Sequence record: PP892525.1 | DNA: 64,000 nt | Strand: one strand, 5' to 3' | Origin: Escherichia phage vB_EcoS_I14 | Part shown: in pieces, positions 38,837 to 53,862 of the stretch | Layout: each line of letters opens with the position of its first letter | Position numbering within the stretch: position 1 is the first letter of the stretch | Notes under the pieces: model-generated | Told to the model about the DNA's origin: nothing | Databases searched by the model: none | The model's input: the letters and a program-made list of their open reading frames with translations, nothing else | Position numbers and translations under genes: made by a program

Positions 38837-38842
38837 AAATTT

Positions 38843-38917: not shown

Positions 38918-38919
38918 AA

Positions 38920-39207: not shown

Positions 39208-39228
39208 TTTCCAAAAGTTCTGTATAAT
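39200..39228 (+). promoter_or_regulatory. T5-type promoter: -35 TTGCTT, -10 TATAAT
   Basis: 17 bp spacer. Confidence 0.65.
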
Positions 39229-39239
39229 AATTACATAAA

Positions 39240-39482
39240 TTGAACTGGAGAAGCAACATGACAGAACAAGAATTGAATGAACGTAAGCTGGTAATGCTTC
39301 GCTTACTAAATATTTTCTCTGGTATGGACGGTGGAATTGACTTTGTTCATCTACGTTCTTTCGTAGAAGAAGCCGAAGGCGAATCTATCACTAAAATCCT
39401 TAAACACATGGGATTACTTTTAGATGCTGCTAATGTGGCTACTGAATATAAACTAGAAGATCTACCGGAGCGTGTTAAATGA
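39240..39482 (+). CDS. hypothetical protein (80 aa)
   Basis: RBS GGAG. Confidence 0.5.
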   Translation: MNWRSNMTEQELNERKLVMLRLLNIFSGMDGGIDFVHLRSFVEEAEGESITKILKHMGLLLDAANVATEYKLEDLPERVK

Positions 39483-39670
39483 AACGATTAGTTAGATTTA
39501 AGTGTTGTGGTTCTGAACATATTTTCACACATCTTCGTGAATTTAAAATGTGTGATTGTGGTAAATCAGGCTATGACTCAGGAGATGGGTTCTACGCCCG
39601 TACTCTAGGGAACTTCAATGATCTAGAATTTGAAGATCTCGAAAAGCAAGATAAATCGACCGTTGGCTGA
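39479..39670 (+). CDS. hypothetical zinc-ribbon-like protein (63 aa)
   Basis: Cys pairs CCGSEH...CDCGKSG. Confidence 0.45.
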   Translation: MKRLVRFKCCGSEHIFTHLREFKMCDCGKSGYDSGDGFYARTLGNFNDLEFEDLEKQDKSTVG

Positions 39671-39732
39671 ATGGCTTAGGCGAAGGATTGCAAATCCTTT
39701 TTATGTGAGTTCAAATCTCATGCGGTCGTCCA
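39657..39732 (+). tRNA. tRNA-Cys (anticodon GCA)
   Basis: acceptor CGACCGT/GCGGTCG, anticodon stem AAGGA/TCCTT with loop TTGCAAA, T loop TTCAAAT, CCA. Confidence 0.8.
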
Positions 39733-39739
39733 AATTTTA

Positions 39740-39822
39740 GGGTCGTTAGCCAAGCGGTTTGGCGGCGGATTGTTAATCCGTGTCGAAAGACAACGTAGGT
39801 TCGAATCCTACACGGCCCGCCA
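39740..39822 (+). tRNA. tRNA with anticodon GTT on a long-variable-arm (type II) scaffold
   Basis: acceptor GGGTCGT/ACGGCCC, anticodon stem GCGGA/TCCGT with loop TTGTTAA, 13 nt variable arm GTCGAAAGACAAC, T arm GTAGG-TTCGAAT-CCTAC, CCA. Confidence 0.6.
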
Positions 39823-39924
39823 AATTCTGTGTAGAGTTAAGTAAACCGGTAGCCAACCAGCTATCATTGCTGACATCGAATTCAGCCACAGATACCATTT
39901 TCATTAATAACTGAGGAAACAAGC

Positions 39925-40110
39925 ATGTCCAAGAATGTAATTGCACAGTTAGAAGTTCATCGTGATAACACAGCTAATAACATTAAGTGCCGACAAAAAG
40001 ATATTGAAGCTCGAAAGGCTGATCTTTTAATGAGTATTCGAGAGCTTAATGTACGAAAAGAGTTTCTTAAAGAACTTAATGCAGCTATTGAAAAACTCAA
40101 AGCTGAGTAA
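39925..40110 (+). CDS. hypothetical protein (61 aa)
   Basis: RBS GAGGAAA. Confidence 0.45.
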   Translation: MSKNVIAQLEVHRDNTANNIKCRQKDIEARKADLLMSIRELNVRKEFLKELNAAIEKLKAE

Positions 40111-40119
40111 ATGAATTAT

Positions 40120-40196
40120 GCGACCGGGGCTGGCTTGGTAATGGTACTCCCCTGTCACGGGAGGGAATGTGGGTTCAAATCCCATCGGTCGCGCCA
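40120..40196 (+). tRNA. tRNA-Asp (anticodon GTC)
   Basis: perfect acceptor GCGACCG/CGGTCGC, anticodon stem CTCCC/GGGAG with loop CTGTCAC, T loop TTCAAAT, CCA. Confidence 0.85.
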
Positions 40197-40222
40197 AACT
40201 AAACTAGCACGAGAAATATGAT

Positions 40223-40570
40223 ATGGTTAATGCTAAAGAAGAATTGTTACTTGCCCTAAAGAATACTAATTCTGAAGTTAAGTGTATTAAGATAGAATTC
40301 GGTTATTATGGGGACAAAGAAGTTTGGGTATTACCCATAGGTTATACAGAAAAAGATATTGAAGATTTTCTAAATAATCTAGACTTTAAATATGATTCTG
40401 GTTTCGGTGGACAATTGCTTTATGGTAACGTATGGTTTACTGATGGAACTTGGTTAGAACGTGGTGAATACGACGGTTCTGAATGGTGGGAATATAAGGC
40501 TACACCAGCAATCCCAGAAGAATGCCGAACAATTAATGGTGAAGTAGATCGTACTTTACTATTAAATTAA
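40223..40570 (+). CDS. hypothetical protein (115 aa)
   Basis: ORF. Confidence 0.5.
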   Translation: MVNAKEELLLALKNTNSEVKCIKIEFGYYGDKEVWVLPIGYTEKDIEDFLNNLDFKYDSGFGGQLLYGNVWFTDGTWLERGEYDGSEWWEYKATPAIPEECRTINGEVDRTLLLN

Positions 40571-40692
40571 CAAAATTTCAGTGCAGAACACGGAGCTAGC
40601 AATTCGGAAGTGCTGACTCATGATAAGCTGCCTATGTACTTGCGAAGCGGTCGTGTCCAAGACTCGGACTCTTGCACTGAAAACAATCAAAC

Positions 40693-40813
40693 ATTCTAGC
40701 GTGGTTGATGGGGAAACCAGCTTGGCTAGGGCAGAAGCTCGTTCGATTCGAGTGAAAGAATGGTTCTCGTAAGTCCGCACAAGTGATAGCAGGTTCGAGT
40801 CCTGTCTAGAATG
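40693..40813 (+). ncRNA. candidate tRNA-like RNA of about 121 nt with an enlarged central region
   Basis: 7 bp acceptor-like helix ATTCTAG/CTAGAAT, D-arm-like TGGTT...AACCA, canonical T arm GCAGG-TTCGAGT-CCTGT, but about 68 nt where an anticodon arm should be. Confidence 0.35.
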
Positions 40814-40962
40814 ACACTATAAAGTTTACTTATTATGTAGGTTCCGATAGATCGGCGGGTCTATTCTGGCATTTAAGAGAAGTCTCGCAAACTTTTTTGT
40901 CAGCCGTGGGGTTGGTAGCCTCCAGGTGGCCTACACAATAAGTAAATTTATTAAAAATTCAT

Positions 40963-40991
40963 TTGCTATTCTGCTTTATTATCTGTATAAT
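40963..40991 (+). promoter_or_regulatory. T5-type promoter: -35 TTGCTA, -10 TATAAT
   Basis: 17 bp spacer. Confidence 0.7.
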
Positions 40992-41023
40992 ATATTTTAT
41001 AAAGTGAAGAGAAGGAAAGCAAA

Positions 41024-41182
41024 ATGAAACACAAGATAGCTCAAGTCTTTATGGCATTATGGTGTATGCCAATAGCTATAACAGCATTTAATCTAGATAC
41101 TTTTACTATAGAAGAAAAATATATCGGATTAGTTAGCGGCTTTAGTATGCTGGGCTTATCTTTGCTGTGGTTAAAGAAATAA
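41024..41182 (+). CDS. hypothetical small membrane protein (52 aa), below the ORF-track cutoff
   Basis: ATG at 41024 after RBS AAGGAAAG; hydrophobic. Confidence 0.4.
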   Translation: MKHKIAQVFMALWCMPIAITAFNLDTFTIEEKYIGLVSGFSMLGLSLLWLKK

Positions 41183-41186
41183 TATT

Positions 41187-41264
41187 CTCCGTGTAGCTCA
41201 GTTTGGCCAGAGCGTTTCGTCTGGAGCGATAGGGTCGGGGGTTCAAATCCTCCCACGGAGACCA
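41187..41264 (+). tRNA. possible tRNA-Pro (anticodon TGG), atypical anticodon loop
   Basis: acceptor CTCCGTG/CACGGAG, D stem GCTC/GAGC, loop TCTGGAG with C at position 33, T arm GGGGG-TTCAAAT-CCTCC, CCA. Confidence 0.5.
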
Positions 41265-41270
41265 AATAAT

Positions 41271-41348
41271 TGCGGGTTAGATCTCTGGTAGAGATCGCTA
41301 GTCTCATAAGCTAGAAAGAGGTAGGTTCGATTCCTGCACCCGCTTCCA
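41271..41348 (+). tRNA. tRNA with anticodon CAT (Met, fMet or Ile-lysidine)
   Basis: anticodon stem CTAGT/GCTAG with loop CTCATAA, D stem GATC/GATC, T loop TTCGATT, CCA; position 1-72 mispaired. Confidence 0.65.
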
Positions 41349-41368
41349 TTTTAATAGAGGATTTCGAA

Positions 41369-41536
41369 ATGAAAGTATTTCGATTAGTAGTAAGTGACAA
41401 ACGCTTAGGTAAGAATACATCAAAATCCTTACTTGCTCATTATGGTAGAAATTGGGATGAAGTAATGGCAGAGTTTAGTACTAATCACCCTTACTTGAAA
41501 GTTCACTCTATTAAAGAAGTATACAATGGTTACTAA
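41369..41536 (+). CDS. hypothetical small protein (55 aa), below the ORF-track cutoff
   Basis: ATG at 41369; ends 2 nt before tRNA-Lys. Confidence 0.4.
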   Translation: MKVFRLVVSDKRLGKNTSKSLLAHYGRNWDEVMAEFSTNHPYLKVHSIKEVYNGY

Positions 41537-41537
41537 T

Positions 41538-41616
41538 AGATCGCTAGCTCAATAGGTTTAGTAGCATCCGACTTTTAATCGGAAGGTTCTGGGTTCGAGT
41601 CCCAGGCGATCTACCA
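41538..41616 (+). tRNA. tRNA-Lys (anticodon TTT)
   Basis: perfect acceptor AGATCGC/GCGATCT, anticodon stem TCCGA/TCGGA with loop CTTTTAA, T arm CTGGG-TTCGAGT-CCCAG, CCA. Confidence 0.85.
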
Positions 41617-41620
41617 AATT

Positions 41621-41694
41621 GCTCGGTTAGTTTAATGGGAGAACCCCGTCTTTACACGGCGGTTGCGATAGTTCGATTCTATCACCGAGTACCA
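41621..41694 (+). tRNA. tRNA-Val (anticodon TAC)
   Basis: acceptor GCTCGGT/ACCGAGT, anticodon loop TTTACAC, T arm GATAG-TTCGATT-CTATC, CCA. Confidence 0.8.
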
Positions 41695-41713
41695 ATTAAC
41701 TCAAAATAAGGAA

Positions 41714-42073
41714 TTGCAAATGCAATTATCAAGCAAGGTTCAAGGCTATTTCGGTCATGTAACAATGGAGTTCGCTATCTCTAAAGGTTGGGACTTCGAA
41801 CAAGATTTAGCTGAGTTCTACAAAGATATTGATCTGAACGTACCATATATGGGACTTTCTACTGGTCAGGAGATCACAGAAGCCGATGTATTCAAGGCAA
41901 GTCAAGGTGAGGTAACACCTAGTTTTGCCGAGTTCTGGTTAGGCATTACGTTAAAAGAAGATGCACCAGATAGTGGTGTACTAATGTCTAGTTTGCACTC
42001 TGGAAGTTCCGATTACCTTTTCATTAGCGATGTTAAGGAAATACAAGAAGTCTGCAAAAATGTACTTGCTTGA
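41714..42073 (+). CDS. hypothetical protein (119 aa)
   Basis: RBS AAGGAA; 3' end overlaps next promoter. Confidence 0.5.
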   Translation: MQMQLSSKVQGYFGHVTMEFAISKGWDFEQDLAEFYKDIDLNVPYMGLSTGQEITEADVFKASQGEVTPSFAEFWLGITLKEDAPDSGVLMSSLHSGSSDYLFISDVKEIQEVCKNVLA

Positions 42074-42094
42074 TGCTTAATTTCTTGTTATAAT
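42066..42094 (+). promoter_or_regulatory. T5-type promoter: -35 TTGCTT, -10 TATAAT, driving a non-coding transcript
   Basis: 17 bp spacer; no ORF follows, only a structured region and then tRNA-Ala. Confidence 0.65.
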
Positions 42095-42120
42095 ATTTAT
42101 ATAAATTGATGAGGATTTCT

Positions 42121-42310
42121 CCTCATCATAGTTCACTAAGGTATTAGCTCGACCTAGGACTGGCTGCCAAAAAGCACGATCCCTACGATTCGGGAGAAGT
42201 TCTAGATTAGTCCACTAGATTCAGCGGCAACTGAATAGTGTATTGGGTTTGCGAGATGACGCGGTTCCTTCCGCTCGAAGCGAAGGTGCTGTAGTTACGC
42301 CGAGCTAATA
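42121..42310 (+). ncRNA. candidate structured small RNA of about 190 nt
   Basis: terminal clamp ATTAGCTCG (42143-42151) pairing with CGAGCTAAT (42301-42309); internal hairpins GCGGTTCCTTCCGC and CTTCGC/GCGAAG; no ORF. Confidence 0.4.
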
Positions 42311-42332
42311 GCCTTAGTAAACTAAAGAATTT

Positions 42333-42406
42333 GGGGATATAGTTTAATGGTAGAACATCTGCTTTGCACGCAGAAGACGAGGGTTCAACTCCCTCTTTCT
42401 CCACCA
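42333..42406 (+). tRNA. tRNA-Ala (anticodon TGC)
   Basis: anticodon stem TCTGC/GCAGA with loop TTTGCAC, T arm GAGGG-TTCAACT-CCCTC, CCA; one U-U in acceptor. Confidence 0.7.
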
Positions 42407-42412
42407 AAATTC

Positions 42413-42497
42413 GGGGCTATGCTGGAACTGGTAGACAATACGGCCTTAGATTCCGTAGCTTAAATGCGTGGGAGTTCGAGTCTCCCTAGCCCCACCA
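42413..42497 (+). tRNA. tRNA-Leu (anticodon TAG), long variable arm
   Basis: perfect acceptor GGGGCTA/TAGCCCC, anticodon loop CTTAGAT, T arm GGGAG-TTCGAGT-CTCCC, CCA. Confidence 0.75.
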
Positions 42498-42513
42498 ACT
42501 TATAGGGTAATGT

Positions 42514-43098
42514 ATGCAGTTTGTACCAATAAAAGATGCACCAGGGTATTTAGTAAATGAAACAGGGGATGTGTTATCTACATTTACTAATAAAATTTTA
42601 TCAAGATATATAGTTGATGGATACCCTGCTGTAAAATTACAGATAAATGGTAAGCAAACTTCGGTACTTATACACCGAATTATTTCTCATGTATTTGGGG
42701 ACTTATATAATCTATTTGACCCTGAATTAGAAGTAGATCACAAGGATAGAGATAGGCTGAATCTATCTAAAGATAATCTTCAAGTTTTATCAAAAATAGA
42801 ACATCAGAAGAAAACTAATAAAGATAATGGATGGTCTGATAGTAGAGTACCTTGCCCCTTATGTGGAAATCTAATGCTTCAGAGATCAGTAACATGTACA
42901 AATTGTAAGCCAAAACCTACAGGAAAGTTAATAAAACCAGAGTTGTCCTTAGAAGACATAACTGAAAAGGTTTTATTAATGGGGTGGGTTAAGGCAGCTA
43001 AAGATCTAGAAGTATCAGAGTCCACTTTACGTAGACGATATACTAAACTAACCGGATTAAGCCCAAAAGTATTAACAGAACAACGGAAAAGCAAATAG
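42514..43098 (+). CDS. HNH homing endonuclease-like protein
   Basis: HNH motif in VDHKDRDRLNLSKDNLQVLSKIEHQ plus C-terminal Cys cluster; embedded in tRNA array. Confidence 0.7.
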   Translation: MQFVPIKDAPGYLVNETGDVLSTFTNKILSRYIVDGYPAVKLQINGKQTSVLIHRIISHVFGDLYNLFDPELEVDHKDRDRLNLSKDNLQVLSKIEHQKKTNKDNGWSDSRVPCPLCGNLMLQRSVTCTNCKPKPTGKLIKPELSLEDITEKVLLMGWVKAAKDLEVSESTLRRRYTKLTGLSPKVLTEQRKSK

Positions 43099-43178
43099 AC
43101 TGGTGACTAAACCCGATTGGAAATCGGTTGAGTGGTAGCAATACCGCCTTATGGGTTCAACTCCCATCTTTTCCGCCA
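43085..43178 (+). tRNA. tRNA-Ser (anticodon GGA), long variable arm
   Basis: perfect acceptor GGAAAAG/CTTTTCC, anticodon loop TTGGAAA, T arm ATGGG-TTCAACT-CCCAT, CCA. Confidence 0.8.
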
Positions 43179-43190
43179 AACAATTTATAT

Positions 43191-43285
43191 GGTAGGTCAA
43201 TCCAACGGCTGGCGCTGGACTCCGACTTGAAATCGGTTGATCGTAGTGATACGGTGTAAGGGTTCGATCCCCTTACCTACCTCCA
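43191..43285 (+). tRNA. tRNA-Ser (anticodon TGA), long variable arm
   Basis: perfect acceptor GGTAGGT/ACCTACC, anticodon loop CTTGAAA, T arm AAGGG-TTCGATC-CCCTT, CCA. Confidence 0.8.
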
Positions 43286-43651
43286 AATCTTGAAGTATGC
43301 CGGAATCGGTAGACGGGGCTGCCTAAAAGGTTTATAGGGAACATCCACTCCCTGCAACATACCTCATAAAGCGGCTGAGATAAATGGTCTATCTCGTGAA
43401 GGTTCAAGTCCTTCTGCTTCTTGATACATCTATGGCTCAAAGTGTAACGGTGCTATTTGATGCTCTTGGTAAGACTTCCCCGACATGCGTTCGGGAGTAA
43501 GCTGCTAAGGCTAGGGTAGAAGAGTTTCTGAGAGCCGCCACAATTGAAAATTCGTACTCGTCTTGAGCTGCGTGCAATAGGAGATAACTTGATTAGTATT
43601 CTAGAACATGCTAATTGAGGAAGGTTTCGCTAACCCTGCGAGTTTTCAATT

Positions 43652-43728
43652 GTGGCTATATCATAATTGGTTAATGATCCTGATTGTGAATCAGGCCTAT
43701 GTGGATTCGAATTCCACTAGCCACCCCA
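43652..43728 (+). tRNA. tRNA-His (anticodon GTG)
   Basis: perfect acceptor GTGGCTA/TAGCCAC, anticodon stem CCTGA/TCAGG with loop TTGTGAA, T arm GTGGA-TTCGAAT-TCCAC, CCA. Confidence 0.85.
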
Positions 43729-43752
43729 AATTAACTTAAATAGGAAATAAAT

Positions 43753-43947
43753 ATGGCTGATTTCTGCAAACAATGCTCCATTGATATGTGGGGCAGAGAT
43801 ACTGGTGATCTTTCTGGTTTGATTACAGAAGCTGAAGTTAAAGAAGGCTACGGTGCTGTTGTGGTTTGCGAAGGATGCGGAGTTATTCGAGTAGATCATG
43901 AAGGCAAACGTTTGGAAGAATCTGAGCCAACAACGATTTTTCCGTAG
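43753..43947 (+). CDS. hypothetical zinc-ribbon protein (64 aa)
   Basis: CKQC...CEGCG Cys pairs; RBS TAGGAAA. Confidence 0.5.
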   Translation: MADFCKQCSIDMWGRDTGDLSGLITEAEVKEGYGAVVVCEGCGVIRVDHEGKRLEESEPTTIFP

Positions 43948-43963
43948 AATAAGATGAAATTAT

Positions 43964-44039
43964 TGGGATGTAGATCAATTGGCAGATCGTCGGTTTCTGA
44001 CATCGAAGGTTCCACGTTCGATCCGTGGCATCCCAGCCA
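43964..44039 (+). tRNA. tRNA-Gln (anticodon CTG)
   Basis: perfect acceptor TGGGATG/CATCCCA (U1-A72), anticodon loop TTCTGAC, T arm CCACG-TTCGATC-CGTGG, CCA. Confidence 0.8.
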
Positions 44040-44045
44040 AACAAT

Positions 44046-44120
44046 TGGAAAGTAGTGTAATGGTTAGCACTGGAGATTTTGAATCTCTTAGTTAGGGTTC
44101 GAATCCCTACTTTCCTGCCA
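44046..44120 (+). tRNA. tRNA-Gln (anticodon TTG)
   Basis: anticodon stem GGAGA/TCTCT with loop TTTTGAA, T arm TAGGG-TTCGAAT-CCCTA, CCA; position 1-72 is U-U. Confidence 0.7.
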
Positions 44121-44126
44121 ATTTAC

Positions 44127-44201
44127 GCGTGATTAGTTCAGTGGCTAGAATAACTGGCTTCCAACCAGTAGACACGAGTTCGACTCTCGTATCCCGCACC
44201 A
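44127..44201 (+). tRNA. tRNA-Gly (anticodon TCC)
   Basis: anticodon stem ACTGG/CCAGT with loop CTTCCAA, T arm ACGAG-TTCGACT-CTCGT, CCA. Confidence 0.75.
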
Positions 44202-44218
44202 ATTTTTAAGGAAACGTT

Positions 44219-44440
44219 ATGCACGTTTTTGAATTTCGTAATAAAAGTACCGATAAACGAGTTATTGTTATTGGAGAAACATACCGAGCATACGAACAAA
44301 CTGACGGCTCTGTTATCTTGAATGACGAGAAAGGAGGTTTTAGCTTTTATCCCAAAGAAACTTACGAAGAATTTCGTACAAAGTTTCTTCTACCAGACTG
44401 GCTAGAAGTAGCGCAGCAACGAGAACCCGAAGATGGCTGA
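44219..44440 (+). CDS. hypothetical protein (73 aa)
   Basis: RBS AAGGAAA. Confidence 0.5.
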   Translation: MHVFEFRNKSTDKRVIVIGETYRAYEQTDGSVILNDEKGGFSFYPKETYEEFRTKFLLPDWLEVAQQREPEDG

Positions 44441-44597
44441 TAACCTAAAAGTCAAGATCGATAAACAAAAGAAACGTGTAGAAGTAGAGATTGGTGAAGA
44501 ACGTGTAGCCTTCACCTTTGAATTTCTACAACAAATGGCAATGACAGTTATGACTGATAAGTCTCCTGTTATTGAAAAAGAAATCCCGTTAAAATAA
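44433..44597 (+). CDS. hypothetical small protein (54 aa), below the ORF-track cutoff
   Basis: ATG at 44433 overlapping previous stop; stop codon sits inside palindrome ATCCCGTT-AAAA-TAACGGGAT. Confidence 0.4.
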   Translation: MADNLKVKIDKQKKRVEVEIGEERVAFTFEFLQQMAMTVMTDKSPVIEKEIPLK

Positions 44598-44605
44598 CGG
44601 GATCT

Positions 44606-44692
44606 GCTGGGTTGGCAGAATGGTTGAATGCACCTGATTTGTAATCAGGAGGAGTAATCCCGTTGCAGGTTCGAATCCTGTGCCCAGCACCA
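44606..44692 (+). tRNA. tRNA-Thr (anticodon TGT) with a 15 nt variable region
   Basis: acceptor GCTGGGT/GCCCAGC, anticodon stem CCTGA/TCAGG with loop TTTGTAA, T loop TTCGAAT, CCA; variable region AGGAG plus TAATCCCGTT. Confidence 0.6.
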
Positions 44693-44706
44693 ACTTAAGG
44701 ACTAGT

Positions 44707-44874
44707 ATGTTTAAACTGTTAGTAGTTATCTGGTATAGTCAATCAAATAGAGCGAATACCTCCCACGTTATAGACTTTAATACTAAAAATGAAGCTGAAA
44801 AAGCATACGCTAATTTAATAGAACGTAATAAAGAATCTCGTAGTATAGTTTATGAAGTGACTAAACTTTATTAA
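44707..44874 (+). CDS. hypothetical small protein (55 aa)
   Basis: ATG at 44707 after RBS AAGGA; the longer ORF-track start 44680 would overlap the tRNA. Confidence 0.4.
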   Translation: MFKLLVVIWYSQSNRANTSHVIDFNTKNEAEKAYANLIERNKESRSIVYEVTKLY

Positions 44875-44882
44875 AAATTCAT

Positions 44883-44911
44883 TTGCCTTCTCTCTTATTT
44901 CTTGTTATAAT
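44883..44911 (+). promoter_or_regulatory. T5-type promoter: -35 TTGCCT, -10 TATAAT
   Basis: 17 bp spacer. Confidence 0.65.
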
Positions 44912-44941
44912 ATTTATATAAATTAATGAGAGGGAAACCAA

Positions 44942-45235
44942 ATGAAACGTTATATTTCTGTTATGTTCCAAACTGGTGGTCAACGCTATACATATGAATT
45001 TCCATCTTCTTGGAAAATCAAAGAAGGTGATCAAGTAGTTGTACTAACACCTCGTGATGGGTACAAGGTAGTAACGGTTAAGCAAGTCTTCCCAAAAGAT
45101 TATACGCCATCTAAGTCTATTAATTATAAAATGATTCATGGTGTAGTTCGTCAAGTACCACGAGCGGAAGTCGAAATCAAAGTAGATAAAGATGGTAAAC
45201 TTAAATATACCTCTTGCTTAGAAGAGTTGCTATAA
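44942..45235 (+). CDS. hypothetical protein (97 aa)
   Basis: RBS GAGAGGGAAA. Confidence 0.5.
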   Translation: MKRYISVMFQTGGQRYTYEFPSSWKIKEGDQVVVLTPRDGYKVVTVKQVFPKDYTPSKSINYKMIHGVVRQVPRAEVEIKVDKDGKLKYTSCLEELL

Positions 45236-45441
45236 TGAGGATTACTTTTACAGAAAAGATCATGAGTAATGGTGTTATGATCATTACTGCATGGGATGGT
45301 AATCAGTGGTGTAGTGTCTCAGGTATTAAGCCTGAAGAACAAACACTAGATAATATCTCAAAGATTAAGCGAAGAATGACAGAACGTGCACGACTTCCAG
45401 GTGCACCTAGAAATGGCAAACGTTCTGCTGCAAAATGTTAA
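45235..45441 (+). CDS. hypothetical protein (68 aa)
   Basis: ATG at 45235 overlapping previous stop. Confidence 0.45.
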   Translation: MRITFTEKIMSNGVMIITAWDGNQWCSVSGIKPEEQTLDNISKIKRRMTERARLPGAPRNGKRSAAKC

Positions 45442-45442
45442 T

Positions 45443-45519
45443 GCTTCGGTAGCTTAGCGATCTAAAGCACTCGGCTGATAACCGAGAGATCGGGGGTTTA
45501 AATCCCTCCCGGAGTACCA
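45443..45519 (+). tRNA. tRNA-Ile (anticodon GAT), non-canonical T loop
   Basis: anticodon stem CTCGG/CCGAG with loop CTGATAA, D stem GCTT/AAGC, T arm GGGGG-TTTAAAT-CCCTC, CCA. Confidence 0.75.
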
Positions 45520-45615
45520 AATTTAGGAATTAAGACTATGCGTCCAGGAAAGTTTAAAAAAGCTAATTGGTCTAAAGAGTATAAAGAATACTTACTTAGT
45601 CTAGTAAAACATAAT

Positions 45616-45691
45616 AGTTAGTTGGCAGAGTGGTTATGCACCTCCTTCATACGGAGCGACTACAGTGGTTCAAATCCACTACTAACTACCA
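45616..45691 (+). tRNA. tRNA with anticodon CAT (Met, fMet or Ile-lysidine)
   Basis: perfect acceptor AGTTAGT/ACTAACT, anticodon loop TTCATAC, T arm AGTGG-TTCAAAT-CCACT, CCA. Confidence 0.7.
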
Positions 45692-48228: not shown

Positions 48229-48502
48229 CACGGTGCAGATTCCAGCAACTAAGGATGTTTTAACATTCCTACGAAGTGAAAACGCTCAGTTTTGGCATGA
48301 TCATGTTGTAAAGAACGGTAGTACTCCAGATGTAGTTGCCTTTGCCAAAAAACGTATCGAGGAGTATAAAGATCCAGAGATTAAAGATGGTACGATAACT
48401 ATGCAGTTATGGGTAGCCATGCAAACCTTTGGCCCCACAATGCGTTTAGGAAATATCCCATTATTTACAAATATTTTAATTAATGAAAAGGATCTGAAAT
48501 GA
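48206..48502 (+). CDS. hypothetical protein (98 aa)
   Basis: ORF. Confidence 0.45.
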   Translation: MKRLNINSTVQIPATKDVLTFLRSENAQFWHDHVVKNGSTPDVVAFAKKRIEEYKDPEIKDGTITMQLWVAMQTFGPTMRLGNIPLFTNILINEKDLK

Positions 48503-48783
48503 TTATCTCTCCATTTGCTCTTTGGTTCGTCATTGGATCTATAGTAGCTATTTACAGCTTGGTTGATGATCTGTATATTTCTAAGAATAAAGATGTAATA
48601 TTATACGTTATACATAAAACTCGACCGTTAGATCTGCCTCCTCTTGATGATAAAACATTACTCAGATGTGCTAGATCTATGATATTTATTGTAGATATTC
48701 TTCTAGGCCCAACATCTGTGTTTTTCTTTTATAGAAAGACTCGTAATATGAAAAAATTTAAAGCTGAAATGCAGAATACCTAA
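48499..48783 (+). CDS. hypothetical membrane protein (94 aa)
   Basis: N-terminal hydrophobic helix. Confidence 0.45.
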   Translation: MIISPFALWFVIGSIVAIYSLVDDLYISKNKDVILYVIHKTRPLDLPPLDDKTLLRCARSMIFIVDILLGPTSVFFFYRKTRNMKKFKAEMQNT

Positions 48784-48893
48784 AGAACTCGCGTAGGACC
48801 GAGTTGCGTCACCTGCAACTGTTACGGATAAGGGAGTCGTGCCCCTTAGTGCGGTAAGTGGTGAGGTGGCTGCTAGCCCTAACTGGAGATAAT

Positions 48894-49238
48894 ATGACTA
48901 CATTACTAATTCTTGTTACAACTTGGTTTTTAATCGGTGCTGGATATGCGATAGCTATTATTAGACATCTGGACGAATATTCTGCTGAATGGTTTGTTAA
49001 GTATCTACGTATTGATGATCAAGAACAGAAGTTTAAAGATGAAAAGCAGAAAAAAGCAGTAAATAATATGACAGCCAAAGAATGCTTGTTCTACATGCGT
49101 ATTGTAGGGTTCTTTGGACTATTAGTTGCTGGCCCAATTGGTTCTACCATTGCCCCATATAAAGAAACAGTTGCTGACATCAAATTGTGGAGAAATGCAG
49201 GGGTACTACGCAAAGCTAGAGAAACTAATATTACATAA
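48894..49238 (+). CDS. hypothetical membrane protein (114 aa)
   Basis: ATG at 48894 with RBS GGAG; two hydrophobic helices. Confidence 0.45.
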   Translation: MTTLLILVTTWFLIGAGYAIAIIRHLDEYSAEWFVKYLRIDDQEQKFKDEKQKKAVNNMTAKECLFYMRIVGFFGLLVAGPIGSTIAPYKETVADIKLWRNAGVLRKARETNIT

Positions 49239-49282: not shown

Positions 49283-49318
49283 AGCCCAGCCTGCACTTTT
49301 GCGACTGGGCTATTTTTA
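49283..49318 (+). terminator. rho-independent terminator
   Basis: stem AGCCCAG/CTGGGCT followed by ATTTTTAT. Confidence 0.65.
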
Positions 49319-49333
49319 TAATAAAATTTTAGT

Positions 49334-49361
49334 TGCTTAGATGCCCAAATTTTTGTATAAT
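49334..49361 (+). promoter_or_regulatory. T5-type promoter: -35 TTGCTT, -10 TATAAT
   Basis: 16 bp spacer. Confidence 0.6.
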
Positions 49362-49392
49362 ATGTTTATAGATTGAGGCAAGAGGATTAAAT

Positions 49393-50091
49393 ATGAGGAT
49401 CATTTCTAAATTCGCCGATGTATATGATTTGCAGAACAGTTTATTTGATGCAGATCGTGTTTGGGAGCGTAAAACTGAAGAGCTACTGGTTAAAGTAACC
49501 GATGATGCAGAAAAGAACATTGTGCATACTCGCCAGGTATTTCGTGATGGCTCACTATCCTTTCGTGGTGATTTCGAATATTTTGTAAACCCACTATTTG
49601 TTGCAGGTGAAGTTTACTGGTTGCACGAGCTGTACTGCTGGCATCCAGCATTTAGCTTCAAAACGTTTAATCTCGACACTATGTTCGATAAAATGGAAGA
49701 GATGGGATTACATGCTCGCTCTTACTTAATGGATAAGAGTCGCGGAGATGTTCGTGAAACAATGCGTGATTTGCTCGCTGAAGCAAAACCTAAAGCAGAA
49801 CGTATCTTATCCGAACTGCGTGTACCGATTGCATATGTGAAAGGTATTAAGAAGAACGATAACGATGATGTTCGTAACTTCGTGATTCAGACTAATATTC
49901 GTTTCCATCAGTCAGGTATTCCGTGGCAGGAAATTGAAAGTAACTTATACCGTTTACACCAAGTTCTCGAACAGTATATCTTCGGTGTACTAGGAACTGG
50001 TGAGCCTGATATGATTAAAGTATCAGATAAAGACAGGTTAGCAGCGCATGGATTTGATACAAAAACTTCTTTCAGGAATATGGCACGGTAA
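49393..50091 (+). CDS. hypothetical protein (232 aa)
   Basis: RBS AAGAGGA. Confidence 0.55.
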   Translation: MRIISKFADVYDLQNSLFDADRVWERKTEELLVKVTDDAEKNIVHTRQVFRDGSLSFRGDFEYFVNPLFVAGEVYWLHELYCWHPAFSFKTFNLDTMFDKMEEMGLHARSYLMDKSRGDVRETMRDLLAEAKPKAERILSELRVPIAYVKGIKKNDNDDVRNFVIQTNIRFHQSGIPWQEIESNLYRLHQVLEQYIFGVLGTGEPDMIKVSDKDRLAAHGFDTKTSFRNMAR

Positions 50092-50497
50092 GTGGTATAT
50101 CCTGGGAGCAGGTCTAGCGATAGGCATCGGGTTCGGTGCGTATCACTTAGTAAATAAAGTGGAGACTTTAGCGGGAGATCTTGCGGTAGCTACTAAAAAG
50201 ATTTCCTCTCTAGAGACTTCCCTTAATAAGGTGAAAGCTGAAAGTGAACTTCGTGAGACTAGAATGAATCAGTATTTCACAGTGAATAATATTTCGCAAG
50301 CAGATCTAGACAAAAAGATTAAGCAGTTAGATAAAGCTCTTAGTCGACAAGATATTATAGCTGCAAAGCCTGGATTGGTAACATTAATTGCTAAAAAGCA
50401 GAGTAAAGAGTTCGAGGAAAGATTAGCGTGTTTAACTGGAAACTTGGAATACTGCTCGCAGCCGCAATCACAATCACAGGCTGTGCAGAAGAAATAA
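50048..50497 (+). CDS. type II membrane protein with coiled coil (i-spanin-like candidate)
   Basis: N-terminal TM WYILGAGLAIGIGFGAYHLV followed by heptad-rich periplasmic segment; overlaps both neighbours. Confidence 0.4.
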   Translation: MDLIQKLLSGIWHGKWYILGAGLAIGIGFGAYHLVNKVETLAGDLAVATKKISSLETSLNKVKAESELRETRMNQYFTVNNISQADLDKKIKQLDKALSRQDIIAAKPGLVTLIAKKQSKEFEERLACLTGNLEYCSQPQSQSQAVQKK

Positions 50498-50781
50498 AAC
50501 CAGAGCCATCTCATGAGTTAAAGCAAGCTCATGTAGACTGGCCTAAAGGACTTCAACCTTGTAGCTTTGACTTTAAGTTTGAAAAGAAATTAGCTACAAA
50601 TGGAGAAGATGGCGTAGTAGTTGTTGTACCATACAAAGATTGGAATGCAAAAGCAAAATGTGAGGAAGCAGTTTACTCTTACATTTCACGACTGACTGGT
50701 ATGGTTTGCTTCTATCGCCAAGATTTACAAGAAAAACGTTGCTTAGTTTACTATCCACCAATTAACAATAGGAAAGATTAA
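50428..50781 (+). CDS. lipoprotein (o-spanin-like candidate), GTG start
   Basis: signal peptide with lipobox ITGC; starts inside the previous ORF in another frame. Confidence 0.45.
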   Translation: MFNWKLGILLAAAITITGCAEEIKPEPSHELKQAHVDWPKGLQPCSFDFKFEKKLATNGEDGVVVVVPYKDWNAKAKCEEAVYSYISRLTGMVCFYRQDLQEKRCLVYYPPINNRKD

Positions 50782-51533
50782 TGTCAGTATTAGTCGGTTT
50801 ACATGGTGAAGCTGGTTCGGGAAAAGATACCGTTGCAAAATTAATTATCGATTGGTGTAATGACACGTATCCAACATGTTTATCACGTCGTTATAGTTTT
50901 GCTAAGCCCGTTTATGAACTTGCATCCGTAATCCTCGGTGTAACTCCGGAGTTTCTAGGAGAGCGCAGGGGAAAAGAGATTGACCAATGGTTTACTGTCA
51001 CACAATCTCAATTGGAGCGAGCCAGAGATGTGTGGTTTAAGTACGGTATCGATAAGTTTGAAGACTTCTCGTACATTTGGCCTATTTTTGAGGAAAAGTA
51101 TCTTAATCCTCAACAACTTATCTCAGAGAATAAAGAAGACGGACTTTATAGTTTATTTATTTCTCCGAGAAAAATGTTACAGCTCGTAGGGACAGAGCTA
51201 GGAAGGCAGCTGGTGCATGAACGCATTTGGCTCATAATTCTGGAGCAATCCATCGCTAAAGACGACCCAGATGTCGCCGTAATAACAGATGTTAGATTCC
51301 CCAATGAAGGAGAGTTACTCAGAGAAACAAACCATTTAGATATGGATTCTTTGATAGTAAATGTAGTACCCGCTGAGCAGAAGTTCACTATTAAATCAGA
51401 TCATCCATCTGAAAGTGGTATTCCTGCAAAATATATTACGCACGAATTAGTTAATAAATTCGATGGTATCAATAACCTTAAACTAGAAGTTTATAACTTC
51501 TGTGACTTAGAGCTAGAACCACTAGTTGGATAA
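50781..51533 (+). CDS. deoxynucleoside monophosphate kinase-like P-loop protein
   Basis: GLHGEAGSGKDT P-loop near N-terminus. Confidence 0.6.
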   Translation: MSVLVGLHGEAGSGKDTVAKLIIDWCNDTYPTCLSRRYSFAKPVYELASVILGVTPEFLGERRGKEIDQWFTVTQSQLERARDVWFKYGIDKFEDFSYIWPIFEEKYLNPQQLISENKEDGLYSLFISPRKMLQLVGTELGRQLVHERIWLIILEQSIAKDDPDVAVITDVRFPNEGELLRETNHLDMDSLIVNVVPAEQKFTIKSDHPSESGIPAKYITHELVNKFDGINNLKLEVYNFCDLELEPLVG

Positions 51534-51545
51534 TCAAGGATCGCT

Positions 51546-52145
51546 ATGACTAATAAAAAAGAAGAAAAGACTAACCTGTTTCACTCCATTCGCCAATCTA
51601 ATGAGTATACCTTTTTCTTTGATGAAGAATTAGGTCCACCTGATGAATACCGTGATTTATCAATGGTACTTATGCAGGCAAATGAGGACGACGAAATTAA
51701 TCTGATGATTAATGGCCCGGGTGGTTATGTTGATACTGCTGCACAGTTATCTAACTTAATTGCTAATTGCCGTGGAACAGTTATAGGACATCTGGTTGGT
51801 CCTAGTGCTTCTGCTTACTGCACAATTTTTCTATCCTGTCATGGATGGGTAGTACACCCACATGCTACGCTAATGGGCCACACGTTCTCTGGTGGGTTCT
51901 GTGAGAAAGGTCAGGAAATCAAGAAAGCCTATGAATCTTACAACAAGTTTGTAGAAGATATGATGCTAGATGTCTACTATCCCTTTTTCTCAATAGATGA
52001 AATCGACGAGATGGTAAAAGACAACAAAAATATCTATCTAGATAGCAAGGAAATCCATAAGCGTATTGAAATCTTGGCGAAATATCGATCTGAGCAATAT
52101 AATAAAGCCCAGTTACCTCAATCCGAGGAGCACAACGAAGAGTAA
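51546..52145 (+). CDS. ClpP-like serine protease fold protein
   Basis: LMINGPGGYVDTA resembles the ClpP INSPGG segment. Confidence 0.45.
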   Translation: MTNKKEEKTNLFHSIRQSNEYTFFFDEELGPPDEYRDLSMVLMQANEDDEINLMINGPGGYVDTAAQLSNLIANCRGTVIGHLVGPSASAYCTIFLSCHGWVVHPHATLMGHTFSGGFCEKGQEIKKAYESYNKFVEDMMLDVYYPFFSIDEIDEMVKDNKNIYLDSKEIHKRIEILAKYRSEQYNKAQLPQSEEHNEE

Positions 52146-52153
52146 GTAATTTT

Positions 52154-52186
52154 AAGCCAGGGTTTAACGACCCTGGCTTTTCTTTT
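52154..52186 (+). terminator. rho-independent terminator
   Basis: stem GCCAGGG/CCCTGGC followed by TTTTCTTTTAT. Confidence 0.7.
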
Positions 52187-52247
52187 ATCTAAAATTCTTC
52201 TTGACAACGACAAAATTTTGTGCTCCAAAGAAAATCTTTAAAAACAC

Positions 52248-52276
52248 ATTGTAATTTTCCTCCAAAATTAGTATAA
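52248..52276 (+). promoter_or_regulatory. promoter: -35 TTGTAA, -10 TATAAT (also TTGACA at 52200)
   Basis: 17 bp spacer; RBS GAGGAGG before 52302. Confidence 0.5.
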
Positions 52277-52301
52277 TGGTACTGGTTAGAGGAGGTTACA
52301 A

Positions 52302-52958
52302 TTGGAAAAGTTCTTACAATTATTAACGGTACTGCTCCAAGAAGCGAAAGATCCAGCATCGCTTCTTAAACGTCTGCTAACTATCTTAGTTGCTGTCATT
52401 ATTTTCTTATTTGTTAGTAATACTAGCGAGGTGATGTCATTCTTAAAGACTTTCTCCACGTCTGCGGTTCTACAGGATGTTCAAACTCAAAGGATAGATA
52501 ACTTTCCTAATGTAGCTAGAGAAAAGAGCATGGTACTCTTTTCTCAAACGGGTGCGGATGCTGTTTTTGTAGTCAAGTATAAACCCGATGCCATTAATGA
52601 TTATTCTAACATTATTGCATGGGAAAGCAATGCGCAATTAGATAGGGCTGACTTGGCCGATAAAGCAGTAAATAAAACGTCTGAGCTATACAGACGTCAC
52701 TTAGAGGGCTTTAACTACGCATCGGATTTAAGTGTAAGAGTAAATAAATATACGGGGTTAAATATACCTGCGTTTAAGAACGTTACTTTTAATTACATAT
52801 ACACTTGTCCATATTTCAATCTAAACAATATCTATGCTGGATATATTGGTATTGCTTGGAAAGATAATCCTGTAGATGCAGCCGATTCTGAGAAATTTAA
52901 GGAATATTTAACAAAGCTCTGTTCTCCACAACAGAGATCTTTAGGTAGATCAATATGA
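52302..52958 (+). CDS. membrane protein upstream of the endolysin (putative holin)
   Basis: single N-terminal TM LLTILVAVIIFLFV; start overlaps endolysin by 4 nt. Confidence 0.45.
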   Translation: MEKFLQLLTVLLQEAKDPASLLKRLLTILVAVIIFLFVSNTSEVMSFLKTFSTSAVLQDVQTQRIDNFPNVAREKSMVLFSQTGADAVFVVKYKPDAINDYSNIIAWESNAQLDRADLADKAVNKTSELYRRHLEGFNYASDLSVRVNKYTGLNIPAFKNVTFNYIYTCPYFNLNNIYAGYIGIAWKDNPVDAADSEKFKEYLTKLCSPQQRSLGRSI

Positions 52959-53368
52959 GTTTTAAATTTGGTAAAAATAGCGAAAAACAATTAGCTACCG
53001 TTAAGCCAGAGCTACAAAAAGTAGCTCGTAGAGCTTTAGAATTATCTCCATATGATTTCACGATCGTACAGGGTATTCGTACAGTAGCACAAAGTGCCCA
53101 GAATATTGCTAATGGTACTTCATTTTTAAAAGATCCTAGTAAAAGCAAGCATATTACTGGGGATGCTCTTGATTTTGCTCCATACATTAATGGCAAGATT
53201 GATTGGAATGACTTAGAAGCATTTTGGGCAGTTAAAAAGGCTTTTGAACAAGCAGGTAAAGAACTAGGCATTAAACTTCGTTTTGGTGCTGATTGGAATG
53301 CTTCGGGAGATTATCACGATGAAATAAAACGTGGTACCTATGATGGCGGTCATGTCGAACTAGTTTAA
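52955..53368 (+). CDS. endolysin, L-alanyl-D-glutamate peptidase (zinc peptidase M15-like)
   Basis: 137 aa; metal-ligand pattern KHITGDALDF ... GGHVEL. Confidence 0.75.
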   Translation: MSFKFGKNSEKQLATVKPELQKVARRALELSPYDFTIVQGIRTVAQSAQNIANGTSFLKDPSKSKHITGDALDFAPYINGKIDWNDLEAFWAVKKAFEQAGKELGIKLRFGADWNASGDYHDEIKRGTYDGGHVELV

Positions 53369-53378
53369 TTAATAACTG

Positions 53379-53404
53379 AGGCGGGAATATTCCCGCCTTT
53401 TTAG
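53379..53404 (+). terminator. rho-independent terminator after the endolysin
   Basis: stem GGCGGGAA/TTCCCGCC followed by TTTTTT. Confidence 0.75.
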
Positions 53405-53445
53405 GCAAAGGGGGCTTTAATAATTTTTGAAGATAGGAGAAAGCC

Positions 53446-53862
53446 ATGTTTGCAGAACTATTCACTATGATGCTGCTAGGTATCTGGAAAATAAGTCTAG
53501 TAGTATTCGTTTTAATGATAGTCTTTACTATCCTTGCATTAACTACCCGAAATAGCTTGTTAATAAAGGTTATTCACGGACTAGAGTATATAATTATGGG
53601 TTCATTCGGCGTTTGTAAATGCAATTGCCATAGAGATACGAAATATTGTTGGTTATGGATGGAACTAGAGAATCCTATATCCATAGCTTTGGCTGTTTCA
53701 TTCGGCATGATTCTTATGGCCCTTACTCTAGCATTAATACCTTTGATGTTAGCTGGGGGAGTTACAGCGTATTTCACCCTTTTCTCCCCGATACTTATGT
53801 ACTCAATTTACCCAATAACTATGTATCTAGTTAGGAAAAGATTTATACACGCAGAAGATTAA
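53446..53862 (+). CDS. polytopic membrane protein (138 aa)
   Basis: about four hydrophobic helices plus CKCNCH cluster; RBS TAGGAGAAAG. Confidence 0.5.
   Translation: MFAELFTMMLLGIWKISLVVFVLMIVFTILALTTRNSLLIKVIHGLEYIIMGSFGVCKCNCHRDTKYCWLWMELENPISIALAVSFGMILMALTLALIPLMLAGGVTAYFTLFSPILMYSIYPITMYLVRKRFIHAED

What the first reader, a model, noticed from the sequence alone, without database searches (positions are those of the whole stretch)
50048..50781. Overlapping type II membrane/coiled-coil protein and lipoprotein: candidate spanin pair 1.5 kb from the lysis genes
ORF 50048..50497 has an N-terminal TM helix followed by a heptad-rich periplasmic segment (i-spanin-like). ORF 50428..50781 starts with GTG inside it in another frame and encodes a signal peptide with lipobox ITGC (o-spanin-like). 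Overlapped architecture is typical of Rz/Rz1. The pair is separated from the putative holin/endolysin (52302..53368) by dNMP kinase and a ClpP-like gene, and the lipoprotein is larger than typical o-spanins and not Pro-rich, so identity is uncertain.
Basis: inference. Interest (0 to 1): 0.45.

Follow-up and report, generated by a model that had tools for sequence, protein, structure and literature searches.

The report
T5-type spanin gene pair
These two overlapping genes are the already catalogued spanin pair of T5-like phages, relatives of phage T4's PseT.3/PseT.2, which break the host's outer membrane in the last step of lysis; the finding is correct but ordinary.

Summary
The window is a T5-like phage (Tequintavirus; about 98% identical to many Salmonella and E. 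coli phages). ORF 50048-50497 (149 aa: N-terminal TM helix, then a helical, heptad-patterned periplasmic domain) and ORF 50428-50781 (117 aa: GTG start, lipobox ITGC, Ala at +2) correspond to T5.045 and T5.044. GenBank records annotate them 'Rz-like spanin' or i-spanin/o-spanin. Kongari et al. 2018 list them as the 'T5 family' of overlapped two-component spanins with a 70-bp overlap, which is exactly the overlap here. Both proteins fall in the same PHROG families (739 and 812) as T4 PseT.3 and PseT.2, a pair that has been tested by experiment. The two cysteines essential in T4 PseT.2 align with C94 and C105 here. The gene order spanins, dNMP kinase, Clp-like protease, holin, endolysin is conserved across Demerecviridae. 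Both frames show purifying selection. The lipobox cysteine is present in every relative with a complete N-terminus. No direct experiment on the T5 pair was found, so function rests on homology. Novelty: already known. Interest: low.

The parts
50048..50497 (+). i-spanin gene (149 aa), homologue of T5.045 and T4 pseT.3
   Evidence: ORF. phrog_739 E 8.2e-37. Annotated i-spanin / Rz-like spanin. BLASTP against T4 PseT.3: 26% identity, E 8e-6, including the shared KPGLV motif.
50093..50152 (+). Predicted N-terminal transmembrane helix of the i-spanin (residues about 16-35)
   Evidence: Kyte-Doolittle 19-residue maximum 1.55 at residues 17-35. This is the only hydrophobic segment. Prediction only.
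50428..50781 (+). o-spanin gene (117 aa precursor, GTG start), homologue of T5.044 and T4 pseT.2
   Evidence: ORF. phrog_812 E 3.5e-30. Annotated o-spanin. BLASTP against T4 PseT.2: 29% identity, E 3e-7.
50414..50418 (+). GAGGA Shine-Dalgarno sequence 9 nt upstream of the o-spanin GTG, inside the i-spanin coding sequence
   Evidence: Read directly from the sequence.
50428..50497 (+). 70-nt out-of-frame overlap. It encodes the i-spanin C-terminal C-L-T-G-N-L-E-Y-C tail in one frame and the o-spanin signal peptide and lipobox in the other.
   Evidence: The 70-bp overlap is reported for T5 in PMC6139136. There are 0-2 substitutions against relatives.
50473..50484 (+). Lipobox I-T-G-C (residues 16-19); Cys19 is the predicted lipidated first residue of the mature protein, followed by Ala at +2
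   Evidence: The Cys is conserved in every homologue with a complete N-terminus, and none has Asp at +2.
52302..52958 (+). Class III (T4 gpt-type) holin, functional partner in lysis
   Evidence: Pfam PF11031 Phage_holin_T, E 2.8e-112. phrog_860 holin. Same gene model in T5 and DaisyDussoix.
52955..53368 (+). Endolysin (M15-type peptidase, 137 aa), functional partner in lysis
   Evidence: phrog_465 endolysin, E 2.2e-54. Sub-threshold Pfam Peptidase_M15_4 hit. Annotated endolysin / L-alanyl-D-glutamate peptidase.
52154..52179 (+). Intrinsic terminator-like hairpin (11-bp stem plus T run) that ends the transcription unit containing the spanin genes, ahead of the holin promoter region
   Evidence: T5 has a putative terminator and a promoter annotated at the equivalent places.

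Best explanation
The two genes encode the two-component spanin of a T5-like phage.

The 149-aa product is a bitopic (type II) inner-membrane protein. One N-terminal TM helix anchors it, and a mostly alpha-helical, partly coiled-coil domain reaches into the periplasm. The 117-aa product is made from an internal GTG in another reading frame. It is exported, lipidated on Cys19 after signal peptidase II cleavage, and sent by the Lol pathway to the inner leaflet of the outer membrane, because residue +2 is Ala and not Asp.

The C-terminal parts of the two proteins bind each other, so the complex spans the periplasm and threads through the peptidoglycan mesh. The holin (52302-52958) lets the endolysin (52955-53368) destroy the peptidoglycan. 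The spanin complexes are then free to move and change conformation, and they disrupt the outer membrane, most likely by fusing it with the inner membrane. This completes lysis.

Shown here: the gene models, the signals, the homology, the conservation and the synteny. Inferred from established work on lambda Rz/Rz1 and T4 PseT.3/PseT.2: topology, lipidation, complex formation, disulfide bonding and membrane fusion.
For: - Identity of the phage: 98% nucleotide identity to T5-like phages.
- Family assignment: phrog_739 and phrog_812, the same two families that T4 PseT.3 and PseT.2 match, at E 1.3e-37 and 5e-42.
- Pairwise homology to the T4 pair. T4 C87 and C98 align with C94 and C105 here. Kongari et al. 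found both T4 cysteines essential for lysis and showed that pseT.3/pseT.2 complement lambda RzamRz1am (PMC6139136).
- T5.045 and T5.044 are annotated 'Rz-like spanin', with notes citing similarity to T4 and RB69 PseT.2.
- PMC6139136 lists the T5 spanin family with a 70-bp overlap.
- The TM helix, heptads, lipobox and +2 Ala are present.
- Across 23 aligned family members (the window protein, 19 of the 20 representative clusters found, plus T4, PR1 and My1), every complete sequence keeps the lipobox Cys. The W-P motif and the two C-terminal Cys are at least 90% conserved.
- The order i-spanin, o-spanin, dNMP kinase, Clp-like protease, holin, endolysin is conserved in Tequintavirus, Klebsiella T5-like phages, Priunavirus PR1 and Myunavirus My1.
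- Third-codon-position bias in both genes and a near-invariant overlap.
Against: - I found no experiment on the T5-family pair itself, so function rests on roughly 26-29% identity to the T4 pair plus shared architecture.
- The i-spanin start has only a weak AGG ribosome-binding motif and lies inside the upstream ORF.
- Pfam-A and NCBIfam (the local copies) have no model that recognises either protein.
- The structure models were low confidence.
- The genes sit in a different transcription unit from the holin and endolysin.
Confidence: 0.93

Rival explanations
1. The lipoprotein is a receptor-blocking or superinfection-exclusion lipoprotein (as T5 Llp or the Cor proteins are), and the upstream membrane protein is functionally unrelated. 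The overlap is only gene packing.
For: T5-like phages are known (my own knowledge) to encode a small lipoprotein, Llp, that blocks FhuA. The genes lie with early-type genes (dNMP kinase) rather than in the holin-endolysin operon.
Against: The protein is homologous to T4 PseT.2, including both cysteines essential for its lysis function (PMC6139136). [quoted passage not shown] From my own knowledge, Llp lies next to the receptor-binding protein gene, not here. The i-spanin tail and the o-spanin signal peptide share 70 highly conserved nucleotides.
Confidence: 0.02
2. The pair descends from spanins but is dispensable for lysis in T5-like phages or has another main role in the envelope, because it is transcribed with nucleotide-metabolism genes rather than with the holin and endolysin.
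For: A terminator-like hairpin and a promoter-like site separate the spanin unit from the holin unit (T5 annotation). No direct experimental test was found.
Against: T4's functional spanin genes are likewise far from genes t and e (PMC6139136). Every defining sequence feature is kept under purifying selection across at least four genera of Demerecviridae. Spanins are harmless until the peptidoglycan is removed, so early synthesis costs nothing (established lambda model; my own knowledge).
Confidence: 0.04
3. One or both ORFs are chance open frames, for example the GTG ORF is a shadow of the first gene.
For: The i-spanin ribosome-binding site is weak. An antisense 81-aa ORF (50269-50514) shows that spurious ORFs do occur here.
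Against: There are hundreds of homologues, down to 26-46% identity, with conserved motifs. Third-position substitution bias is seen in each frame. In IrisVonRoten a homing endonuclease gene separates the two genes, and both remain intact. The antisense ORF has no PHROG hit.
Confidence: 0.005

Closest known systems
Phage T5 T5.045 / T5.044 (the 'T5 family' of two-component spanins; Kongari et al. 2018, PMC6139136)
   Same: Orthologues. The o-spanin has the same length (117 aa), the overlap is the same 70 nt, the neighbours are the same (dnk, Clp-like protease, holin, lys), and the periplasmic domains are nearly identical.
   Different: In T5 an HNH homing endonuclease gene (hegF, T5.046) lies immediately upstream of the i-spanin gene. 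The window lacks it, and the first 13 or so residues of the i-spanin differ (149 aa here, 147 aa in T5).
Phage T4 PseT.3 / PseT.2 (spanin pair validated by experiment)
   Same: - Same PHROG families, 739 and 812.
- 26% and 29% identity.
- Shared KPGLV motif in the i-spanin.
- Shared W-P motif and C-x-Y-R-x-x-L-x-E-x-x-C hairpin in the o-spanin.
- The o-spanin is structured (beta-alpha-beta type secondary structure; against PMC6139136) and is not proline-rich.
- The genes are not next to the holin and endolysin.
   Different: - The T4 genes overlap by only 4 nt and are classed as 'separated'.
- T4 PseT.3 has no periplasmic Cys, whereas the protein here has a C-terminal C-x7-C extension.
- T4 PseT.2 lacks the extra Cys45/Cys78 pair.
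Lambda Rz / Rz1
   Same: Same functional class and logic: a type II inner-membrane protein with coiled-coil propensity, plus an outer-membrane lipoprotein encoded downstream in a different frame of shared DNA.
   Different: Lambda Rz1 is wholly embedded in Rz and is unstructured (PMC6139136). From my own knowledge, its mature form is about 40 aa and proline-rich. The i-spanin here matched no PHROG family other than 739, the T4/T5-type one; the lambda sequences themselves were not compared. Only the first periplasmic helix shows coiled-coil character, as described for T4.
P2 LysB / LysC (from my own knowledge, the prototype of the 'overlapped' architecture; one search lists it only as one of three paradigm spanin pairs)
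   Same: The o-spanin gene starts inside the i-spanin gene in another frame and runs past its end.
   Different: No PHROG match other than 739 and 812, which points to a different protein family; the P2 proteins themselves were not compared.

Membership tests
Two-component spanin (functional class; Summer et al. 2007, Kongari et al. 2018) | i-spanin: a single N-terminal transmembrane domain with the rest of the protein periplasmic (type II topology) | tested here: met
   There is one hydrophobic segment, at residues about 16-35, and none elsewhere. Topology is predicted, not measured.
Two-component spanin (functional class; Summer et al. 2007, Kongari et al. 2018) | o-spanin: a lipoprotein signal peptide with a lipobox Cys and an outer-membrane sorting signal (no Asp at +2) | tested here: met
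   ITGC at residues 16-19 with Ala at +2. The Cys is conserved in all homologues with a complete N-terminus, and none has Asp at +2. LipoP and SignalP were not available.
Two-component spanin (functional class; Summer et al. 2007, Kongari et al. 2018) | The o-spanin gene is embedded in, overlaps, or immediately follows the i-spanin gene | tested here: met
   A 70-nt overlap in a shifted reading frame. The overlap is 34-88 nt in other Demerecviridae.
Two-component spanin (functional class; Summer et al. 2007, Kongari et al. 2018) | Periplasmic cysteines able to form intermolecular disulfide bonds | tested here: met
   The i-spanin has C128 and C136. The mature o-spanin has C45, C78, C94 and C105. 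The disulfide bonds themselves were not tested.
Two-component spanin (functional class; Summer et al. 2007, Kongari et al. 2018) | The phage infects a Gram-negative host and also encodes a holin and an endolysin | tested here: met
   Hosts of close relatives are Salmonella and E. coli. The holin and endolysin lie at 52302-53368.
Two-component spanin (functional class; Summer et al. 2007, Kongari et al. 2018) | Required for outer-membrane disruption; complements lambda RzamRz1am | not testable with these tools
   Shown for the T4 homologues (PMC6139136). I found no report for the T5-family pair.
T4 PseT.3/PseT.2 - T5 spanin superfamily (PHROG 739 / 812) | Significant match of both proteins to the family profiles | tested here: met
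   phrog_739 E 8.2e-37 and phrog_812 E 3.5e-30. T4 PseT.3 and PseT.2 match the same profiles.
T4 PseT.3/PseT.2 - T5 spanin superfamily (PHROG 739 / 812) | The two C-terminal o-spanin cysteines, essential in T4 (C87 and C98) | tested here: met
   They align with C94 and C105 and are at least 90% conserved in the 23-sequence alignment.
Lambda Rz/Rz1 sequence family | Sequence similarity to Rz/Rz1, an embedded Rz1, and a short proline-rich o-spanin | tested here: not met
   Only phrog_739 and phrog_812 match; the lambda sequences were not compared directly. The architecture is overlapped, not embedded. The mature o-spanin is 99 aa with 7% Pro. It works like Rz/Rz1 but is not a member of that sequence family.

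The most novel reading that the evidence does not exclude
The T5-type spanin may use a disulfide arrangement different from both lambda and T4.

- The o-spanin carries an extra pair, Cys45 and Cys78, that is strictly co-inherited: both present in 16 family members, both absent in 5, and never one alone in complete sequences. This suggests an added intramolecular disulfide.
- The i-spanin ends in a conserved C-x7-C loop that T4 PseT.3 lacks. The loop is encoded entirely inside the 70-nt overlap.
- That loop could form a covalent bond between the i-spanin and the o-spanin, or a redox-controlled lock.
- The conserved 'NWK' in the o-spanin signal peptide would then be a by-product of selection on the other reading frame.
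Probability: 0.12. Interest if true: 0.3.

Novelty: already known. Interest (0 to 1): 0.08.

Why it matters
It matters little beyond correct annotation. Many GenBank records of T5-like phages still call these two genes 'hypothetical protein', label the o-spanin as 'i-spanin', or truncate it so that the lipobox is lost. The local copies of Pfam-A and NCBIfam do not recognise either protein. A clear statement that this pair is the T5-family spanin, homologous to T4 PseT.3/PseT.2, therefore helps annotation and phage engineering. It also shows that T5-like and T4-like phages share both a class III holin and a spanin type while using different endolysins.

Tried and rejected
- Pfam-A and NCBIfam scans gave no hit above threshold for either spanin. 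The weak FtsL-like match (21 bits against a cut-off of 50) only reflects the TM-plus-coiled-coil shape.
- The sequence search of the PDB gave no meaningful hit.
- Single-sequence AlphaFold models were low confidence (mean pLDDT 57 and 66). I used them only for secondary structure, ran no fold search, and did not read disulfide geometry from them.
- The word-indexed homologue search returned only 5 close clusters, too shallow for a better model. Those clusters carry a precomputed Pfam accession, PF26831.1, that the local Pfam copy did not report for the query.
- RNA folding around the o-spanin start showed no unusual structure (z = 0.16).
- The promoter-pattern scan was not enriched over shuffles (11 found against 13.5 expected). 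The promoter sites are therefore cited only because they coincide with T5's annotated promoters.
- A literature search for T5.044/T5.045 locus tags found nothing.
- I considered and rejected two other readings: a receptor-blocking lipoprotein (Llp/Cor-like) and chance ORFs (see the rival explanations).

Full report
**What is there.** The window carries two same-strand ORFs at exactly the reported coordinates: 50048..50497 (ATG, 149 aa) and 50428..50781 (GTG, 117 aa). They share 70 nt, and the second ORF is read in a frame offset by 2 nt from the first.

The first protein has one hydrophobic segment, residues about 16-35 (Kyte-Doolittle 19-residue maximum 1.55). After it comes a stretch with strong a/d heptad periodicity: windows starting at residues 26-40 score at least 0.8 on a simple home-made measure. 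A low-confidence single-sequence AlphaFold model (mean pLDDT 66) is helical over 2-79, 84-98, 107-115 and 120-129.

The second protein begins MFNWKLGILLAAAITITG|CAEE. That is a basic n-region, a hydrophobic core, the lipobox I-T-G-C at residues 16-19, and Ala at +2. A GAGGA motif lies 9 nt before its GTG. The mature protein would be 99 aa with 7% Pro and four Cys besides the lipidated one. The i-spanin start has only an AGG 10 nt upstream and lies 44 nt inside the preceding ORF 49393..50091. RNA folding around the internal GTG shows nothing unusual.

**What the window is.** Region 49300-53500 is 97.6-98.5% identical to the 25 best-matching T5-like phages of Salmonella, E. coli and Citrobacter (453 phage records match in all). 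A cluster of 24 tRNA genes lies upstream. The neighbours are a dNMP kinase (50781..51533), a Clp-like protease (51546..52145), a T4-gpt-type holin (52302..52958; Pfam PF11031, E 2.8e-112) and an M15-type endolysin (52955..53368).

**Identity of the pair.**
- The proteins match PHROG 739 (E 8.2e-37) and PHROG 812 (E 3.5e-30), both in the 'lysis' category as 'Rz-like spanin'.
- The same gene models (450 nt and 354 nt) are annotated i-spanin and o-spanin in phage DaisyDussoix. That annotation used the SpaninDataBase (PMC8594841). Phage WP85 has them as 'Rz-like spanin'.
- In the T5 reference genome the orthologues are T5.045 and T5.044, 'Rz-like spanin', with notes citing similarity to T4 and RB69 PseT.2.
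- Kongari et al. 2018 list a 'T5' family among both i-spanins and o-spanins and state that 'the T5 spanins overlap by 70 bp' (PMC6139136). That is the overlap found here.

**Relation to T4.** T4 PseT.3 and PseT.2 match the same two PHROG profiles, at E 1.3e-37 and 5e-42. Direct BLASTP gives 26% identity (E 8e-6) for the i-spanins, including a shared A-x-K-P-G-L-V motif, and 29% identity (E 3e-7) for the o-spanins. T4 C87 and C98 align with C94 and C105 here.

According to PMC6139136:
- pseT.3/pseT.2 complement a lambda RzamRz1am lysis defect.
- Both PseT.2 cysteines are essential.
- PseT.2 has a beta-alpha-beta organisation instead of lambda Rz1's unstructured form.
- In PseT.3 only the first periplasmic helix has coiled-coil propensity.
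- The T4 genes are not near t and e.

The single-sequence model of the o-spanin here gives strand 63-69, helix 72-85, and strands 91-97 and 102-109. C94 and C105 lie on the two strands of the last hairpin. The model is low confidence (mean pLDDT 57) and was used for secondary structure only.

**Conservation.**
- tblastn finds the i-spanin in 539 phage records and the o-spanin in 559. Hits reach down to Klebsiella T5-like phages (38% and 46% identity), Providencia PR1 (36%), Pectobacterium My1, and T4-like phages where the hit is annotated pseT.2.
- The gene order i-spanin, o-spanin, dNMP kinase, Clp-like protease, holin, endolysin is kept in all four Demerecviridae lineages examined. The overlap varies between 34 and 88 nt.
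- An exhaustive HMMER search of 1.84 billion representative proteins found 20 clusters.
- I aligned 19 of those clusters with the window protein and with T4, PR1 and My1 (23 sequences). Every sequence with a complete N-terminus has the lipobox Cys, none has Asp at +2, and W38, P39, C94 and C105 are at least 90% conserved.
- Against close relatives, substitutions fall mainly on third codon positions of each gene's own frame: against T5, 6/2/25 in the i-only part and 8/6/25 in the o-only part. The overlap has only 0-2 changes. Both frames are therefore under purifying selection.
- In IrisVonRoten, as in Shivani (PMC6139136), a homing endonuclease gene sits between the two genes and both remain intact.

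**Mechanism (inferred from the lambda and T4 work).** The i-spanin is anchored in the inner membrane. The o-spanin is lipidated and sorted to the outer membrane. Their C-terminal regions bind each other, and the complex is held in check by the peptidoglycan mesh. Once the holin and endolysin remove the peptidoglycan, the complexes disrupt the outer membrane, most likely by fusing the two membranes.

A strong terminator-like hairpin at 52154-52179 and a promoter-like site at 52249-52277 coincide with T5's annotated putative terminator and promoter. The spanin genes are therefore transcribed with the dNMP kinase and the Clp-like protease, separately from the holin-endolysin operon. This does not conflict with spanin function, because spanins are inert until the wall is gone.

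**Small extras.**
- The i-spanin's C-terminal C-L-T-G-N-L-E-Y-C (C128, C136) is absent from T4 but conserved in all Demerecviridae examined. It is encoded wholly inside the overlap.
- The conserved 'NWK' in the o-spanin signal peptide is the other reading frame of 'CLTGN'. It is lost where the genes are separated (Iris: MRKIK...). It is probably a by-product of constraint on the i-spanin. This is inference.
- Cys45 and Cys78 of the o-spanin occur together in 16 sequences and are absent together in 5. One occurs alone only in two incomplete sequences. This suggests an extra intramolecular disulfide. This too is inference.

**Limits.** I found no experiment on the T5-family pair itself. Pfam-A and NCBIfam (the local copies) have no model for it, and no solved structure matches. 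LipoP, SignalP and TMHMM were not available, so I used hydropathy, lipobox pattern matching and family-wide conservation in their place.

**Verdict.** This is the known T5-family spanin pair, homologous to T4 PseT.3/PseT.2. Novelty: already known. Interest: low.

Noticed in passing
window 49393-50091 / 50048; L006 (T5) 3246-3743: T5 carries the HNH homing endonuclease gene hegF (F-TflVI, T5.046) between the T5.047 homologue and the i-spanin gene. The window lacks it. Here ORF 49393-50091 overlaps the i-spanin start by 44 nt, and the first 13 or so residues of the i-spanin differ from T5 (MDLIQKLLSGIWHGKW against MRKWFVDLVWNNKM).
   Followed up: partly
L010 (IrisVonRoten) 1909-3354: In some Tequintavirus genomes a putative homing endonuclease gene (699 nt) is inserted between the i- and o-spanin genes. 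This converts the overlapped architecture into a separated one. The i-spanin keeps its C-x7-C tail, and the o-spanin acquires a new n-region (MRKIK instead of MFNWK).
   Followed up: partly
window 50428-50497: The i-spanin C-terminal motif C-L-T-G-N-x-x-Y-C (absent from T4 PseT.3) and the o-spanin signal-peptide n-region 'NWK' are two readings of the same conserved DNA. 'NWK' is conserved in Klebsiella, Providencia and Pectobacterium relatives but lost where the genes are separated, so it probably hitch-hikes on the i-spanin constraint.
   Followed up: partly
window 50560-50562 and 50659-50661 (o-spanin Cys45 and Cys78): The two cysteines are strictly co-inherited across the family: both present in 16 sequences and both replaced (mostly by aromatic residues; Val or Gly in some) in 5, including T4 and PR1. 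This suggests an additional intramolecular disulfide in the T5-type o-spanin.
   Followed up: partly
window 50957-50970 (inside the dNMP kinase gene): The sequence GGAGAGCGCAGGGG matches the site annotated in T5 as a 'major DNA single-chain interruption' (nick consensus Pu-GCGC). The T5-type nick site appears to be conserved in this phage.
   Followed up: partly
window 35053-45691: A cluster of 24 tRNA genes, all on the + strand, typical of the T5 early region.
   Followed up: no
window 53446-53862: A 138-aa ORF that looks multi-spanning from its runs of hydrophobic residues (no hydropathy calculation was run on it) lies immediately downstream of the endolysin gene. It matches phrog_5944 (unknown function). 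Two further ORFs lie upstream at 48499-48783 and 48858-49238, whose T5 counterparts are annotated as two-TM proteins; they match phrog_5265 and phrog_5468 (unknown function). Any role in lysis control is untested.
   Followed up: partly
window 52302-53368: The phage combines a T4-gpt-type class III holin (PF11031, E 2.8e-112) and a T4-type spanin with an M15 peptidase endolysin instead of a T4 E-type lysozyme. [quoted passage not shown]
   Followed up: partly
L007 (Klebsiella phage vB_Kpn_K7_rec11) 3001-3330; various GenBank records: Annotation of this pair is inconsistent in public records. Many call one or both genes 'hypothetical protein', some label the o-spanin 'i-spanin', PR1 annotates an i-spanin start that omits the TM helix, and K7_rec11 truncates the o-spanin to 156 nt, losing the lipobox.
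   Followed up: partly
window 50269-50514 (- strand): An 81-aa antisense ORF lies across the spanin overlap. It has no PHROG match and is probably a shadow ORF.
   Followed up: yes
proteins P0001-P0005: Homologues of the o-spanin carry a precomputed Pfam accession, PF26831.1, which the local Pfam-A scan did not report for the query. A newer Pfam release may already contain a model for this o-spanin family.
   Followed up: no
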